DNA of 64,000 nt. It comes from the human T2T-CHM13v2.0 reference genome, Homo sapiens. Under the pieces are notes generated by a model, which saw nothing but the letters and a program-made list of their open reading frames with translations, was not told where the DNA came from and ran no database searches. Where the stretch lies: the NCBI RefSeq assembly GCF_009914755.1, contig NC_060925.1; one strand, given 5' to 3'. Position numbers and translations under genes: made by a program. This document shows positions 36,861 through 47,351 of the stretch, piece after piece (the stretch's first letter is position 1; each line of letters begins with the position of its first letter).

Positions 36861-38844
<1,984 letters not shown>

Positions 38845-38899
38845 CAGAGATCAGGTTCTTAAGGGAAGTCCGGAGAAATGGGGTTTTTAAAAAACCCGA

Positions 38900-39270
38900 G
38901 TCCAGGCTATCTGTTTGGAGGGGTTGGGAGGCTTGGAGCTGGACCAATAACTTCTTAGGTCTTGCTTTAAGGAGTGAAGATTCTCTGTAGCGACCCTCAT
39001 ACCTGGGCAGTGGGAGCGGGCAGAATCCTTCTTTCTTCTCTTCTCTACACCCCCTCACTCCACCCCCACCCTTCCCCGCCGCCCGTAAACCTTAGCTTTC
39101 CCCTTTCCAACAGAGGTTTCCAGCTGTTGATGCCTGGATGGACCCGGCTGCAGGGAGGAGGAGGAAACTCTCTGTCCCTCCCTTCTTCTGCAAGTCCCCA
39201 CCCTCCCTCCCTCCTCCCCCTGCGCGCTCTCGGTCTCCCTCCCTCTTTCTCCTCTAGGCTGTCCAGTCGC
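38900..39270 (+). promoter_or_regulatory. SOX13: TATA-less proximal promoter
   Basis: CCAAT at ~38944, GC-box-like CCCCGCCGCCC at ~39074, CCCTCC/CACCC (SP/KLF/MAZ-type) tracts, Inr-like CCAGTC around 39265. Confidence 0.65.
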
Positions 39271-39861
39271 CTCGCAGCAGCGAGCCGCGAGCGCCCTTCT
39301 CCAGTCCCGGCTTGGAACTGAACTGTGTGAGCACGGGTCCTGGAACCCGGGCCCAGAACCGGCGAGCCCAGGTCTGAGCCCAGAGCTCAGCGGTCAGCCT
39401 CGTAGGCCCTGACTCGGAATCGAGCCGAGGCGCTGAGGTTGGAGCCGGAGAGCGGGAGAGCCGAAGAGCAGGGAGGGCGGGCCGGCTGCGCGTCCGACGA
39501 GTCGCAGAGCAGGACCGCGGAAGGCAGGGAGACGGCCGCAAGCCCAGGGCAGAGGGCAGAGGGCAGAGAGCGGCCTGGCTCGGCGGAGAGGGCGCCGCCC
39601 GGCCGGAACCAAGCTCGCCGCCCGGGACGGCGGGCCCCGTGGGGCGCGGACCCAGGGTGGCCGTGGGTCCGCAGCGACTCCCCGGCCGACGGCGGGGGGC
39701 GTGCCCCCTCCCAGCCCAGCCTCCCCAACCCGGCCCGCCCGCCGCGTCGCGGGGGCATGTGAGCGGGAAGCCTAGGCTGCCAGCCGCGAGGACCGCACGG
39801 AGGAGGAGCAGGAGCGCGGAGCCGCGAGCCCCGAGCCCCGAGCCCGGCGCCTGGCTGAGTA
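39265..39861 (+). other. SOX13: Non-coding first exon (5' UTR), likely SOX13 exon 1
   Basis: GC-rich ~597-nt segment ending at donor GTA|GTAAGT (39862-39867); its only ATG is immediately followed by TGA. Sequence and length match my recollection of the SOX13 mRNA 5' end; gene identity and TSS are recall, not verified by search. Confidence 0.75.
39388..39628 (+). repeat. Inverted repeat arm A (in exon 1)
   Basis: Reverse complement aligns to 41296-41549 at roughly 80% identity by eye. Confidence 0.92.
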
Positions 39862-40113
39862 GTAAGTGCACCCCTCCCCGCCATGATCGCGCCGTCGCGC
39901 CCATTTCCCCAGCTCTCTGAAGTTTGACACTTGCGCCCCTACGTTTCTGGGCACCCACCGGCTCTCTTCCCTGCGAGTTTCCACCCTGTGCAAAGTTTTT
40001 CGAGGAGAGACGGACCCTCACCTACCCCCAACAACGCTGGGCAGTGGCGGCTCCTCCCTGGCCGACTTGGGTCCTTGTGGAGAGGGATGGCAGCCTCTAA
40101 GGCAGTGCGTGGC

Positions 40114-40160
40114 TGTGTGTGTGTTTGTGTGTGTGTGTGTGTACGCGCGCGCGCGCGCGC
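40114..40160. repeat. (TG)n-(CG)n alternating purine/pyrimidine tract
   Basis: TGTGTGTGTGTTTGTGTGTGTGTGTGTACGCGCGCGCGCGCGCG. Confidence 0.95.
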
Positions 40161-41147
40161 GTTCACCACGCGGGTCGAGCTTAGGGTGCACCCCCAACCC
40201 GCTCCTCGCCGACCGCAGAGGACTAGGTCTTTCTCATCAGCCCGACTATGCGCCTAGTTTAAGGATTTCTCAGCGGGAAGCCGAAGCGACCTGCGCGCGT
40301 CCTGCGTGGGGCTCAGGTGCCTGCGACGAGGCGCAGAGCTCCTCCACCATGGTTGCGTGGGGTGCTGGGGGACAGACGCGCTCCCCTTGCCACGGTTTCA
40401 GGGTCGTTCCCCAGCGGACCAGACCAGCGCGGCATCCTGTTTGTTTTCTGCTCCGGCTGCTCCTGTCCCACCCCCACCCCCACCGCAGGCTGCTTCTTGC
40501 TACCCCCACCTCCCGCCCTGGGATATCGTAGGTGAGCCTTTTCATCCCGATTCCGCTGCAAACGCTGATCGCGCCTAGGGGTAGGGAGATGCGGAGCGGG
40601 TAGTCGTTCAGTTCCCAGCGGCTCGCCATTGTTTTCCCACCCCGCGCGTTCCGTACGTAAACACACACGCACACACAAGGTTGTGTGTGTGCGCCGGCTC
40701 TGGCTGCTTCCCGTCCCCAGGCGCGCAGGGATCGCCCGCGGGATTCGCTCAGCTGCCCGCATGGGTCTTCAGGCTGGAGGCGCTCCAGGACTTAACTGGA
40801 GCTGGAGAGGACAAGAGACGTGGGGGTTGCCGGACAGTACCGGGCGGGGCGGTGAGCCGGGCCTGGGCGGGAAGTGAATTTTGAACTTCAGCCCTGGACC
40901 TTTCCGGGAGGACCCCGAGCGCTGGAGCGGCGGCTCCCGCCCTGGAGGGCCCGCGGCAGCTGCAAAGACTCCGCTGGCGCTCTTGGCAGCCGCCTCGGTG
41001 ACAGAGGCTTGGAGGAAGCCGAAGAGTTTTCCTGGGAAGTTTGCTTTGACTCTCTGGGAATTTCCGGGCAGGACGCCTCGGCGCTGGCGCTGGCGCTGGC
41101 GCTGGTGAAGGGGTCTGGCCAAAGACGGCCAGAGACGATGCTGCTGG

Positions 41148-41291
41148 CTCTTGACCACTAGGCTGTACTTGGCTCTCAGCAGTCCAAGTAGGTGGGTCTC
41201 TACCTCCCGGAGTTCATGCCTTCCAAACCAGTATCCCCCAAAGGATCACGACATGCCGGTTTCAAAGATGGGTGCATAACTCTGCTCGTTT
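41148..41291 (-). repeat. Inverted repeat arm B
   Basis: Reverse complement of 41659-41805; core 41209-41285 matches 41665-41741 at 73/77. Confidence 0.95.
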
Positions 41292-41295
41292 TGGA

Positions 41296-41549
41296 GTCCA
41301 GGGAGGCAAGCTCGGTTCCAGCCGGGCGGCGCTCTCCGTCGAGCCAGGCCGCTCTCTGCCCTCTGCTCTCTGCCCTGGGCGTGGGGCTGTCTCCCTGCCT
41401 ACCGCGGTTGTGCTTTCGGACTCGTCCGACGCGGCGCCAGCCCGCTACCTCCCGCTCTCCCTCTCCCCCGCTCCCTGGCTCCCCGGCTCCCTGACTCCGT
41501 AATCTGCGCCTCGGCGCAGTTGCGAGTCAGGGCCTGAGGCTGACCCCTG
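41296..41549 (-). repeat. Inverted repeat arm A' (antisense copy of exon 1 segment)
   Basis: e.g. GAGCCAGGCCGCTCTCTGCCCTCTGC and CGAGTCAGGGCCT are exact reverse complements of exon 1 sequence. Confidence 0.92.
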
Positions 41550-41658
41550 TTTCCACTGTGCTTCATTAGAAAGCGCTTCGCAAGATGCTGGGATTCAGCA
41601 CATTTGGATTCCAGTTCCCCATCGATGAGCAGCGTGGGTTTGGACTTCCCCGCATGCG

Positions 41659-41805
41659 AAATGGGCAGAGTTATGCACCCAACTTTGAAACTGGCATGTC
41701 GTGATCGTTTGGGGGATACTGGTTTGGAAGGCATGATCTCCAGGAGGGTAGGGACCCACCTACCTCTGGATCATTAAGGGCCAAATATAGCCTAGTGGTT
41801 AAGAG
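41659..41805 (+). repeat. Inverted repeat arm B'
   Basis: Partner of 41148-41291; its last ~20 nt are the 5' end of the adjoining MIR. Confidence 0.95.
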
Positions 41806-42020
41806 TCCTGGAGCTGGAGTTAGATCCCGGATGCCACTGGCGGTGTGACTCTGGGCAATTTAACTTAACCTCTGTGCCTCAGTTTCCTCAGCCATAAAAT
41901 AGGGTTAATATGAACGCTTCATGGGGTTGTCTTGAGGATTAAAAGACTTAATAAAGTGAAACTGAGAACAGTGCCTGGCACATAATAAGTGCTAGGTAAA
42001 TATGAGCTATTATTGCCATT
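41787..42020 (+). mobile_element. MIR SINE
   Basis: TAGCCTAGTGGTTAAGAG start, core CTCTGTGCCTCAGTTTCCTC, end ACAGTGCCTGGCACATAATAAGTGCT. Confidence 0.88.
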
Positions 42021-42949
42021 ATTACTTAACTGACCTTGTACAGAGCCCAGAAGAGCACTTGGTGATTGTGCTCAACTAATCAATTATAACATTGCCCACT
42101 TCTGGAGAGGAGGAGATCTTGTACTCTCTCCCACCCTTGCCTGATTCCAGCCCCTCAGATCAAACGTATCCTTCTTACTCCTTGTCTAGTGCCATCTTCT
42201 CGAGTCTTTTTTCTTTTTCTTGTTTCCTTCCTTTCTCCCTCCCTTCACAACTTTTGTGAAAGCATTTCATTCCCTCCTTTCCTCATTCTTAAAAATCAAT
42301 CTTGGCTCAACTGCAGTGTTCTCTCCATGGAAATCAGGTCCCAGGAAGGAATTGTCTCCAAAAGGGTGTCCCTTGAGCGTCCTCAGCCTGGGCTGCTGGA
42401 TCAGGATTGGATGTGCATTTGTGTCTCTGGGGCAGGGTGAATTTCCAGAGCAAAGAGCCTGTCAGGTGTCTGGGGCCCAGGGGAAGAGTCAGGTGGAATG
42501 GGCTGGGACTGTCCCAGGAGGAGCCCTGCTCCCTGGGTAGTGTCTGTGTCTCCTGCTGCTGGGCTCACTTGGGAACCTGGAATAGCACAGCTGCTTGGGT
42601 AGACTGGATGTGGGATTTGGGGTGAGGGGCAAAAGTGTCACCTCCAACTTTCCACTTGCAGTTGGAGGATTTTCTAGGAATTTGGGTTTGTCACAAGTTC
42701 CTTGTCTGATTCAGGACTCTGCAAATGCATAGCACAGGTAAGGGGCGAGCTGAGCAACCAGGAGGAAGAACAGGGTGCTGCTGCCCAGCCACACTGCCTT
42801 GGACAACAGGCTCCTGTCCTCCTTTCTCAGACCCTCCAACCTCCACCCCAGGCATGGGGGAGGATGGCCAGAAGGTTGCTTCTTCATGTTGGAGATCCTG
42901 CAATTGGCAGTTTTTAGTCATTATGACAACTGGCACTGCAGTCACCCCA

Positions 42950-47351
<4,402 letters not shown>

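What the first reader, a model, noticed from the sequence alone, without database searches (positions are those of the whole stretch)
39388..41805. Interleaved inverted repeats (A..B-A'..B'): an antisense copy of exon 1 caged inside a second hairpin
Seen: exon 1 segment A (39388-39628) is present in reverse complement at A' (41296-41549, ~80% identity), 1.4 kb inside intron 1. A' is abutted upstream by B (41148-41291) and followed ~110 nt later by B' (41659-41805), the reverse complement of B. Apart from ~20 nt of MIR at the outer end of B/B', I recognise neither repeat as a transposon. The order A<B<A'<B' gives crossing (pseudoknot) pairings with only ~4 nt between B and A'. Inference: in the nascent pre-mRNA, an A:A' duplex would close a loop containing the exon 1 donor and mask 240 nt of the 5' UTR, while B:B' would cage A' in its loop. 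Helices this long are topologically hard to form together, so they could act as a co-transcriptional structural switch affecting splicing, pausing or dsRNA processing. An excised intron could also carry an antisense sequence to its own mRNA. I know of no description of this, but cannot check the literature.
Basis: partly seen in the sequence, partly recalled or inferred. Interest (0 to 1): 0.85.

Follow-up and report, generated by a model that had tools for sequence, protein, structure and literature searches.

The report
Old inverted two-piece insertion in SOX13 intron
A 400-base stretch in the first intron of SOX13 is a back-to-front copy of two nearby pieces, one of them part of exon 1, most likely left by a single ancient copying accident; it could make the RNA fold on itself, but nothing found here shows that the cell uses this.

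Summary
A (39388-39628, in the exon 1 5' UTR) matches the reverse complement of A' (41296-41549) at 205 of 236 aligned bases. B (41148-41291) matches the reverse complement of B' (41659-41805) at 127 of 144. In the whole T2T genome each pair has only these two copies (E 5e-50 and 6e-38), so neither is a transposon family.

Read on the minus strand, 41549-41148 is A + 4 nt + B'. That is one block of inverted copies of two segments that lie 2 kb apart. B' runs in register into a dispersed SINE, so B is the derived copy. The two pairs are equally diverged (non-CpG 14/165 vs 13/134). All four homology edges are sharp, and there is no target-site duplication or poly(A).

The best explanation is one old serial template-switch insertion. 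It happened tens of millions of years ago on a rough, recalled clock.

The RNA pairings are thermodynamically strong and mutually exclusive in nested folding. The tests available here give no sign of selection for pairing: G:U vs A:C is 15:12, the mismatches are transversion-rich, and there is tandem-repeat slippage. Conservation, editing and duplex reads could not be tested. Interest is modest.

The parts
39388..39628 (+). A: the source segment in the SOX13 exon 1 5' UTR. It is purine-rich, with GC 0.74 and 30 CpG.
   Evidence: Alignment to rc A'. Only two copies in the genome. Composition. Exon 1 is 39265-39861.
39442..39475 (+). 8-nt tandem array inside A (3.5 copies). Its counterpart in A' has 6.1 copies. 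This is the site of most A/A' indels.
   Evidence: TRF rows; gap runs.
39862..39867 (+). Exon 1 splice donor (GTAAGT). It lies 233 nt after A and 1434 nt before A', so it sits inside the A:A' loop.
   Evidence: Sequence; exon end at 39861 from RefSeq.
41148..41291 (-). B: the derived inverted copy of B'. Its outer edge cuts through the head of the SINE sequence.
   Evidence: 127/144 identity. Unique pair in the genome. Sharp edge at 41147/41148.
41292..41295 (.). 4-nt filler (TGGA) joining the two inverted copies. It matches neither source flank.
   Evidence: Junction print-out.
41296..41549 (-). A': the inverted copy of A, antisense to the 5' UTR when read in the pre-mRNA. It is still CpG-rich (25 CpG, o/e 0.79).
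   Evidence: 205/236 identity; E 3.6e-50; composition.
41441..41498 (+). Expanded 8-nt tandem array inside A' (6.1 copies).
41550..41658 (+). S: a 109-nt resident spacer between A' and B', taken to be the ancestral right flank of the insertion. It has no homology to the sequence that precedes A.
   Evidence: J3a. No repeat partner was found.
41659..41805 (+). B': the resident source segment. Its last 12 nt or more belong to a dispersed SINE that continues downstream.
   Evidence: SINE body matches from 41832 onward.
41794..41990 (+). Dispersed SINE copy (MIR by recall). The head motif is at 41794-41805 and the body runs to about 41990. The exact start is not determined.
   Evidence: 38 genomic matches to 41832-41956. 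6 of 6 fetched copies align within 41832-41990. Head and core are linked at 14 other sites, 0 in the control.
41323..42014 (.). RefSeq functional element 'H3K27ac-H3K4me1 hESC enhancer'. It overlaps A', S, B' and the SINE.
   Evidence: Annotation table, (chr1:203339323-203340014).

Best explanation
The block 41148-41549 (B + 4 nt + A') is a single, old, complex templated insertion in SOX13 intron 1.

During replication or break repair, a growing + strand left its template at about 41147. It then made three moves:
1. It copied the opposite strand backwards over 41805-41659, which made B.
2. After 4 untemplated bases it jumped again and copied 39628-39388 backwards, which made A'.
3. It returned to its own template at 41550.

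This is serial template switching of the FoSTeS/MMBIR kind. It is the large, two-jump counterpart of the short switch-and-return events known to create inverted repeats. Both interleaved inverted repeats are by-products of that one event.

Since then the arms have decayed at similar, apparently neutral rates, by about 12-13% between arms. On recalled primate substitution rates that is very roughly 40-70 million years.

As a consequence, the SOX13 pre-mRNA can in principle form either of two long imperfect duplexes: A:A' of 236 bp or B:B' of 144 bp. These look like ordinary ADAR-type intronic dsRNA. They are a latent property of the sequence, not a demonstrated regulatory device.

Shown: the anatomy, the uniqueness, the equal divergence, the polarity of B/B', and the thermodynamic potential. 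Inferred: the switching mechanism, that A is the source of A', the age, and the neutrality.
For: 1. One block. Both copies are inverted, 4 nt apart, and on the minus strand read A-filler-B' in the same order as their sources.
2. Same age. Overall mismatches are 31/236 vs 17/144 (Fisher p 0.75). Non-CpG mismatches are 14/165 vs 13/134 (p 0.84).
3. Polarity. B' continues in register into a dispersed SINE whose head and core motifs co-occur at 14 other genome sites, 0 in the control. The SINE body has 38 genomic matches. B stops inside the SINE head, so B is the copy.
4. Sharp edges. All four homology edges are abrupt and the flanks beyond them are unrelated.
5. Not a mobile element. There are no other copies genome-wide, no target-site duplication and no poly(A).
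6. Not a spliced-RNA copy. There is no GT/AG at 39629 or 41658.
7. Junction features fit the literature on replicative rearrangements. Short untemplated insertions of 1-20 bp occurred at 13 of 57 join-points, and imperfect 'microhomeology' of >=5 bp at >=70% at 19 of 57, in PMC6902434 (passages read). Here the filler is 4 nt, and the U end matches the priming site beyond B' at 6 of 8 bases with a 1-nt offset.
8. Known mechanism. Intra- and inter-strand switching that copies a fragment in reverse complement and so makes a new inverted repeat is the model of PMC5453318 (section 4 read).
9. No signature of selection on pairing. G:U vs A:C is 15 vs 12 (p 0.70). A/A' has 13 transitions and 18 transversions. 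The tandem array has 3.5 vs 6.1 copies.
10. Long inverted pairs are routine here. Of 260 pairs of >=80 nt within 10 kb in the window, 256 have both arms in masked repeats. 18 other pairs, all overlapping masked repeats, lie in the transcribed SOX13 part, with a median of 292 nt at 77% identity.
Against: - No outgroup sequence was available, so the ancestral empty site (41147 joined to 41550) is assumed, not seen.
- Microhomology is weak. One 6-of-8 imperfect match could be chance, and there is none at the other two junctions.
- Equal divergence also fits two events close in time, and it could be distorted by gene conversion between arms.
- Neutrality is argued from small counts (27 transitions) in one genome. 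Such a test has little power.
- A' has kept CpG-island character (o/e 0.79, 25 CpG vs 30 in A) and lies under a RefSeq hESC enhancer feature. The DNA may therefore not be inert.
- Both duplexes resemble the 'edited non-repetitive' class of the dsRNAscan preprint in length, percent paired and longest perfect run (27 and 29 bp, against medians of 144 bp, 87.5% and 30 bp). Formation in vivo is therefore plausible and could have consequences.
Confidence: 0.65

Rival explanations
1. The two interleaved duplexes are a selected co-transcriptional switch. A:A' loops out the exon 1 donor and masks the 5' UTR, B:B' sequesters A', and the balance between them tunes splicing, pausing or dsRNA processing of SOX13.
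For: Both duplexes are strongly favoured over local folding, by a net -218.7 and -167.0 kcal/mol. They are mutually exclusive states only 32 kcal/mol apart out of about 1400. A:A' enters the MFE as soon as A' is transcribed: 84 pairs at 41400 and 193 at 41549. Competing long-range pairings that control splicing are known in ATE1 (PMC7797038, abstract in the listing). Duplex-forming inverted repeats that loop out a 5' splice site are cited in the reference list of PMC10691357 (Nasim 2002; reference entry only).
Against: The arrangement is fully explained by one mutational event. There is no excess of G:U-preserving changes (15 vs 12). Pair-breaking transversions dominate in A/A' (18 of 31). Tandem slippage has added bulges. 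Functional conserved pairings catalogued in human introns are far shorter, with a median of 13 nt (PMC8052449). No competing 5' splice site for exon 1 is annotated. Before A' appears, 112 of the 241 nt of A are already paired within A. No paper links SOX13 to such a structure (searches; listings only).
Confidence: 0.07
2. Two or more separate events. One version is an inverted duplication of B' first and a later insertion of A' exactly at its inner edge. Another is an inverted duplication of the whole 39388-41805 stretch followed by an internal deletion of about 2 kb.
For: Only one genome was seen, so the order of events is not observed. Equal divergence cannot separate events a few million years apart. 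Fold-back inverted duplications are a known class (PMC3907307, title and abstract in the listing).
Against: This needs a second hit within 4 nt of the first junction, or the insertion of a segment into the middle of its own source followed by a precise deletion. The 4-nt filler matches neither internal edge expected from a deletion remnant. The divergences are indistinguishable (p 0.75 and 0.84).
Confidence: 0.15
3. DNA-level exaptation. The copied CpG-island fragment A', with its flanks, works as an intronic enhancer or promoter-proximal element of SOX13. The RNA pairing is irrelevant.
For: RefSeq places an 'H3K27ac-H3K4me1 hESC enhancer' at 41323-42014 over A', S and B'. A' has kept 25 CpG (o/e 0.79), while the neighbouring B and B' have o/e 0.42 and 0.24. 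This suggests long-term freedom from germ-line methylation.
Against: A' adjoins the large SOX13 CpG island (39629-41147, o/e 0.84) and may simply share its chromatin state. Other hESC enhancer features tile this region at 39944-40628, 43642-44570 and 44571-45499, so the one over A' is not specific to it. No test of activity of A' itself was seen. This rival is compatible with the same mutational origin.
Confidence: 0.12
4. B...B' are the terminal inverted repeats of a DNA transposon or MITE that captured an exon 1 fragment, or the block is a retro-copied piece of SOX13 pre-mRNA.
For: The layout is arm-cargo-arm, with 144-nt arms.
Against: There are no other copies in 3.1 Gb. There is no target-site duplication at 41147/41806 or at 41147/41550, no poly(A), and no splice-site dinucleotides at the deleted interval. 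The B' arm is continuous with an older SINE rather than ending an element.
Confidence: 0.01

Closest known systems
Template-switch mutations that create inverted repeats and hairpins (four-point model, PMC5453318, section 4 read; RNA hairpins from template switching, PMC8794818, abstract only)
   Same: [quoted passage not shown] This instantly creates a new inverted repeat able to fold in RNA, without selection.
   Different: Those events are short, at the scale of mutation clusters, with one switch and one return. The authors state they do not model serial or long-range switches. Here two fragments of 144 and about 241 nt were copied from sites about 0.25 kb ahead and about 1.5 kb behind, with two jumps.
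FoSTeS/MMBIR complex rearrangements with templated insertions and microhomeology (e.g. the PLP1 locus, PMC6902434, passages read)
   Same: Several template switches occur in one event, with inverted segments, short untemplated filler at join-points and imperfect microhomology.
   Different: Those are recent, kilobase-to-megabase copy-number gains studied in a disease locus. This one is a fixed, roughly 400-bp, ancient insertion. Its junction homology can no longer be judged securely: one 6/8 match.
Intramolecular dsRNA from inverted repeats in introns (inverted Alu pairs; 'non-repetitive dsRNAs' of the dsRNAscan preprint, PMC11838218, passages and Table 1 read)
   Same: Two inverted copies within a few kb of one transcript. 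Length, percent paired and longest perfect run fall near the medians of the edited classes.
   Different: The arms are not dispersed repeats. They were the only 2 of 260 inverted pairs in the window with both arms unmasked. One arm is exonic (5' UTR). Two duplexes interleave. Editing is unknown.
Competing long-range pre-mRNA pairings that regulate splicing (ATE1, PMC7797038, abstract in a listing; PCCR catalogue, PMC8052449, passages read)
   Same: Alternative, mutually exclusive base pairings over hundreds to thousands of nt near a splice site.
   Different: Known functional cases are short (median 13 nt), conserved and supported by compensatory changes and mutagenesis. Here the arms are 144-241 nt and conservation is untested. 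The PCCR scan excluded exons by design.
Hairpin-RNA or miRNA genes born by inverted duplication of their target gene (plant and Drosophila examples; recalled, no paper read here)
   Same: An inverted copy of part of a gene yields RNA antisense to that gene's own mRNA.
   Different: Here the antisense copy sits in the same transcript's intron, not in a separate hairpin locus. No small-RNA evidence exists, and Rfam gives nothing above threshold: 4 weak hits, with the best miRNA-like one at 31 bits against a gathering score of 55.

Membership tests
Serial template-switch (FoSTeS/MMBIR-type) templated insertion | The inserted DNA is a copy of nearby sequence from the same locus, here in reverse complement. 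| tested here: met
   A' = rc A at 205/236; B = rc B' at 127/144. The sources lie within 2.2 kb. There are no other copies in the genome.
Serial template-switch (FoSTeS/MMBIR-type) templated insertion | Two or more templated segments joined at one site, with abrupt breakpoints and short filler allowed. | tested here: met
   B and A' are separated by 4 nt. All four homology edges are sharp and the flanks are unrelated.
Serial template-switch (FoSTeS/MMBIR-type) templated insertion | Microhomology or microhomeology at the join-points. | tested here: inconclusive
   There is one 6-of-8 imperfect match with a 1-nt offset at the U/B junction and none at the other two. The event is old, and chance is not excluded.
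Serial template-switch (FoSTeS/MMBIR-type) templated insertion | All segments arrived in one event, so they have the same age. | tested here: met
   31/236 vs 17/144 mismatches, p 0.75. Non-CpG 14/165 vs 13/134, p 0.84.
Serial template-switch (FoSTeS/MMBIR-type) templated insertion | An ancestral allele or outgroup lacks the insertion, with 41147 adjoining 41550. | not testable with these tools
Transposable element with terminal inverted repeats | Multiple dispersed copies. | tested here: not met
   The whole-genome searches found only the two arms of each pair.
Transposable element with terminal inverted repeats | Target-site duplication flanking the element, with arms that end the element. 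| tested here: not met
   The flanks at 41147 and 41806 are not duplicated. B' runs on into a SINE in register.
Retrocopy of SOX13 (pre-)mRNA | Poly(A) tract, target-site duplication, and intron removed at GT-AG. | tested here: not met
   There is no A or T tract at either end of 41148-41549 and no duplication. The missing interval 39629-41658 is not bounded by GT...AG.
Functional long-range pre-mRNA structure (PCCR/ATE1 type) | Complementary regions within one pre-mRNA with stable predicted pairing. | tested here: met
   A:A' cofolds at -443.6 and B:B' at -246.6 kcal/mol. A:A' has 196 pairs in the MFE.
Functional long-range pre-mRNA structure (PCCR/ATE1 type) | Evolutionary conservation with compensatory substitutions. 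| not testable with these tools
   No orthologues are available. The single-genome proxy (G:U 15 vs A:C 12, p 0.70) shows no bias toward kept pairs.
Functional long-range pre-mRNA structure (PCCR/ATE1 type) | Experimental support: proximity ligation, editing, or mutagenesis that changes splicing. | not testable with these tools
   No such data are accessible. Four literature searches pairing SOX13 with 'intron 1', 'inverted repeat', 'A-to-I' and 'dsRNA' listed nothing relevant. Supplementary catalogues are closed.
ADAR-type intronic dsRNA (inverted-repeat duplex) | A long, mostly paired duplex between inverted copies in one transcript. | tested here: met
   236 bp at 86.9% with a longest run of 27, and 144 bp at 88.2% with a longest run of 29. 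These are near the medians for edited dsRNAs in PMC11838218 Table 1.
ADAR-type intronic dsRNA (inverted-repeat duplex) | Clustered A-to-I editing on both arms. | not testable with these tools
   Editing databases and reads are not available here.
Known structured RNA family (Rfam) | Score at or above the family's gathering threshold. | tested here: not met
   There were 4 matches at E<=1 in 38800-42300, and none reached its gathering score.

The most novel reading that the evidence does not exclude
The accident was co-opted. In primates the SOX13 pre-mRNA toggles between an exon-intron duplex (A:A', which hides 40% of the 5' UTR and loops out the exon 1 donor) and an intron hairpin (B:B', which cages the antisense copy). 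After splicing, the excised intron can stay base-paired to the 5' UTR of its own mRNA. This would give a lineage-specific brake on SOX13 output through splicing delay, ADAR editing or nuclear retention. It would be a self-antisense intron created in one step by template switching.
Probability: 0.07. Interest if true: 0.7.

Novelty: new member of a known kind. Interest (0 to 1): 0.3.

Why it matters
This is a clean, datable example of how one replication accident can create two long interleaved inverted repeats in a single step, one arm of which is a 5' UTR exon. It extends the short template-switch events known to seed RNA hairpins to a two-jump, 400-bp scale.

It also gives a concrete, non-Alu test case for whether long exon-intron duplexes form on nascent human pre-mRNA, and whether they are tolerated, edited or unwound.

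If the duplexes form, they could affect expression of SOX13, a developmental transcription factor. If they do not, the locus is a useful negative control for thermodynamics-only dsRNA prediction.

Tried and rejected
- Transposon origin: rejected. Whole-genome searches with 41100-41960 and with exon 1 found no further copies, and there is no target-site duplication.
- Retrocopy or spliced-RNA origin: rejected. There is no poly(A), no duplication, and no GT/AG at the edges of the missing interval.
- Known RNA family: 4 weak Rfam hits, none at gathering score. They include a mir-150-like 31-bit hit on the minus strand of A' and a mir-297 hit that is just the TG tract.
- Confirming the SINE head by similarity search: this failed twice. 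The 81-nt query found only itself, and 0 of 6 fetched copies reached upstream of 41832. The linked-motif pattern search then gave 14 other sites against 0 in the control.
- Microhomology at the junctions: only one weak 6/8 match, so it is not used as evidence of weight.
- Misalignment in the tandem array as the cause of the transversion excess: rejected. The ratio is still 11 ts to 14 tv outside the array.
- Cross-species conservation and covariation: not possible. The collections hold no vertebrate genome other than this reference.
- Literature: searches pairing SOX13 with 'intron 1', 'inverted repeat', 'A-to-I' and 'dsRNA' listed nothing on this structure, judged from titles and abstract starts only. 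SOX13 has 0 occurrences in the main texts of PMC8052449, PMC10691357 and PMC11838218. Their supplementary catalogues (PCCR lists, dsRNAscan tables) may well contain this locus, but supplements are closed, so 'not described' means only 'not found in these searches'.
- A genome-wide count of exon-1/intron-1 inverted copies was considered but not attempted, because only the window and small fetched loci are available to scripts.


Full report
**1. Is it there?**

The ungapped repeat finder on 38800-42300 returned 14 inverted pairs. Three of them tile A/A' (117 nt at 86%, 70 nt at 74%, 41 nt at 85%) and two tile B/B' (89 nt at 92%, 29 nt at 86%).

Gapped local alignment gave the following:
- A 39388-39628 against the reverse complement of A' 41296-41549: 205 matches in 236 aligned bases (86.9%), or 79.2% when the 23 gap columns are counted.
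- B 41148-41291 against the reverse complement of B' 41659-41805: 127 of 144 (88.2%), with 3 gap columns.

B and A' are 4 nt apart, and A' and B' are 109 nt apart. RefSeq puts exon 1 at 39265-39861 and the next exon of the main transcript outside the window. The donor GTAAGT at 39862-39867 therefore lies between A and A'.

Chance is excluded. Against the whole T2T genome the pairs score E 5.2e-50 and 5.7e-38. The exon 1 query has 2 of 2 matches, itself and A'.

**2. Is it a repeat family?**

No. In one search, 42 matches were listed (94 candidates, 40 scored). They were the query itself, A, the two reciprocal B/B' hits, and 38 others. All 38 fall in query 733-857, which is window 41832-41956, the body of a dispersed SINE downstream of B'. 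Nothing else in 3.1 Gb resembles A, A', B or B'.

Within the 64-kb window, a blastn self-comparison found 260 inverted pairs of at least 80 aligned nt and at most 10 kb apart:
- 256 have both arms at least 80% inside RefSeq-masked repeats.
- 2 are mixed.
- Only A/A' and B/B' have both arms unmasked.

Long inverted pairs as such are therefore commonplace. 18 others lie in the transcribed SOX13 part of the window, with a median of 292 nt at 77% identity. Non-repeat pairs are exceptional, however, and both of them sit in this 2.4-kb stretch.

**3. Anatomy and origin**

On the minus strand, 41549 down to 41148 reads A, then 4 nt, then B'. This is the same order as the two sources on the plus strand, but with the 2,030 nt between them (39629-41658) missing. 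The block 41148-41549 is thus one composite of inverted copies of two non-adjacent neighbouring segments.

Polarity of B/B' can be read from the SINE. The 12-nt head motif at 41794-41805 (inside B') and a 13-nt core motif 70-odd nt downstream (outside B') occur together at that spacing at 14 other genomic sites, against 0 for the reversed control pattern. The body from 41832 on has many genomic relatives. B' is therefore resident sequence continuous with an older SINE, and B is a copy whose outer edge cuts the SINE head. Two direct attempts to show the head by similarity failed. The name MIR is my recall.

That A rather than A' is the source follows by inference from A' being welded to the derived B.

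The two pairs are equally diverged:
- Overall: 31/236 vs 17/144 mismatches (Fisher p 0.75).
- Outside CpG context: 14/165 (0.085) vs 13/134 (0.097), p 0.84.
- K2P distances: 0.145 and 0.132.

All four homology edges are abrupt, and the flanks beyond them are unrelated. There is no target-site duplication, no A/T tract, and no GT/AG at the edges of the missing interval. This removes the transposon, retrocopy and spliced-RNA origins.

The 4-nt filler matches neither source flank. At the first junction, the 8 bases before B match the bases that would precede the copy in the source at 6 of 8 with a 1-nt offset. That fits the published definition of microhomeology (at least 5 bp at 70% or more; PMC6902434, passages read), but it is not beyond chance. 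The other junctions show nothing.

The simplest history is one serial template-switch event:
1. A nascent plus-type strand leaves its template at about 41147.
2. It copies the other strand backwards over 41805-41659.
3. It adds 4 bases, then copies 39628-39388 backwards, possibly using itself as template.
4. It returns at 41550.

Switch-and-return copying in reverse complement, intra- or inter-strand, is exactly what the four-point model describes as a source of new inverted repeats and RNA hairpins. Its authors say they do not model successive switches, which they assign to FoSTeS/MMBIR (PMC5453318, section 4 read).

**4. Age**

This is a rough estimate and rests on recalled rates. About 0.13-0.145 substitutions per site between arms is about 0.07 per copy. 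With a primate-lineage rate near 1e-9 per site per year (my recall, not a tool result), this is on the order of 40-70 million years.

The SINE is older. Its copies match this one at only 72-93% over short stretches. Gene conversion between arms would make the true age greater.

Prediction: the block is present in apes and Old World monkeys, perhaps more widely in primates, and absent from rodents and carnivores.

**5. What could it do in RNA?**

ViennaRNA gives the following:

| Quantity | A:A' | B:B' |
|---|---|---|
| Cofold energy (kcal/mol) | -443.6 | -246.6 |
| Sum of separately folded arms | -224.9 | -79.6 |
| Net gain | -218.7 | -167.0 |

Swapped control pairs give a net of about -7.

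The nested MFE of the nascent RNA 39265-41950 (-1402.0) contains 196 A:A' pairs and no B:B' pairs. Forcing an 18-bp core of B:B' yields 133 B:B' pairs, no A:A' pairs, and -1369.9. In a growing-chain series, A:A' enters the MFE as soon as A' is made: 84 pairs at 41400 and 193 at 41549. Before that, 112 of the 241 nt of A are paired within A, which is a kinetic obstacle.

For both helices to be complete, the 109-nt spacer (64-71 nm at full stretch) would have to span a 66-nm, roughly 21-turn helix (inference from standard helix parameters).

Both duplexes have longest perfect runs of 27 and 29 bp. In length and percent paired they sit near the medians the dsRNAscan preprint gives for edited non-repetitive dsRNAs: 144 bp, 30 contiguous bp, 87.5% paired, n = 4,597, against 492,832 unedited (PMC11838218, Table 1). 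They are thus plausible ADAR substrates if they form. All of this is potential, not observation.

**6. Any sign of selection?**

Only weak single-genome proxies are possible, and all are negative.
- Among transitions, those leaving a G:U in the sense RNA (6 + 9 = 15) do not outnumber those leaving A:C (7 + 5 = 12), p 0.70.
- A/A' mismatches are mostly pair-breaking transversions: 13 ts to 18 tv overall, and still 11:14 outside the tandem array. B/B' is 14:3. The transversion excess is unexplained.
- Most A/A' indels are slippage of an 8-nt tandem array, with 3.5 copies in A and 6.1 in A'. This adds bulges to the duplex.
- Functional conserved pairings in human introns are much shorter, with a median of 13 nt, and that catalogue excluded exons and repeats by design (PMC8052449, passages read).

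**7. Points against a purely inert fossil**

A' has kept CpG-island character: GC 0.72, 25 CpG against 30 in A, and o/e 0.79. The adjoining B and B' are CpG-poor, at o/e 0.42 and 0.24. CpG transitions are somewhat more often missing in A' (5) than in A (1).

RefSeq lists an 'H3K27ac-H3K4me1 hESC enhancer' at 41323-42014 over A', S, B' and the SINE. This may simply reflect the neighbouring large SOX13 CpG island (39629-41147, o/e 0.84). It does keep a DNA-level role open.

**8. Literature**

Four searches paired SOX13 with 'intron 1', 'inverted repeat', 'A-to-I' and 'dsRNA'. Judged from titles and abstract starts, they listed nothing about this structure. SOX13 does not occur in the main text of the PCCR paper, the PHRIC paper or the dsRNAscan preprint. 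A broader search for inverted duplications of a first exon in a first intron listed only plant and unrelated cases.

**9. Verdict**

The best explanation is a single ancient serial template-switch insertion that, as a by-product, gave the SOX13 pre-mRNA two alternative long duplexes. It is a new member of known kinds, namely template-switch-born inverted repeats and non-repetitive intronic dsRNA. Its unusual two-jump, exon-copying, interleaved layout makes it a good test case. I found no evidence of a new mechanism.

Noticed in passing
window 40114-40161 and 40652-40690: A (TG)14.5 tract runs straight into a (CG)9 tract, an alternating purine-pyrimidine stretch of the Z-DNA-prone type. A partly complementary CA-rich tract lies about 510 nt downstream (inverted pairs I10/I12, 26 nt at 81% and 20 nt at 90%). 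The weak Rfam mir-297 hit at 40105-40172 (E 0.29) is just this tract.
   Followed up: partly
window 41080-41105 and 41117-41137: A perfect GGCGCT hexamer occurs 4.3 times, followed by a 10-nt unit 2.1 times, immediately upstream of the insertion point at 41147. A slippage-prone tract next to the breakpoint might have favoured polymerase stalling. This is speculation and was not tested.
   Followed up: no
window 41481-41540, minus strand (inside A'): There is a weak Rfam match to mir-150 (31 bits against a gathering score of 55, E 0.0016). It is below threshold and is taken as chance similarity of a GC-rich local hairpin.
   Followed up: no
window 39388-39628 vs 41296-41549: The divergence between A and A' is transversion-rich (13 ts : 18 tv, and 11:14 outside the tandem array), unlike B/B' (14:3). 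This is unexplained. It may be related to the CpG-island context.
   Followed up: partly
window 41323-42014, 39944-40628, 43642-44570 and 44571-45499: RefSeq hESC enhancer features tile the start of intron 1. One of them covers A', S, B' and the SINE. A predicted alternative first exon of SOX13 (XM models) lies at 45716-46834.
   Followed up: no
window 41575-41595 (spacer S) and 38800-38845: A 21-nt stretch in S is 81% like the Alu-derived sequence at 38800-38820 (family D9). The latter is part of an Alu-type element that gives a partial SRP-RNA Rfam hit. The similarity in S is probably chance.
   Followed up: no
window 39546-39568 and 41354-41376: A perfect AGGGCAG unit occurs 3.3 times in the 5' UTR (a run of G-triplets on the sense strand). 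Its C-rich mirror in A' is 87% intact. The GC and AT skews of A (+0.27, +0.51) are mirrored in A' (-0.22, -0.52).
   Followed up: no
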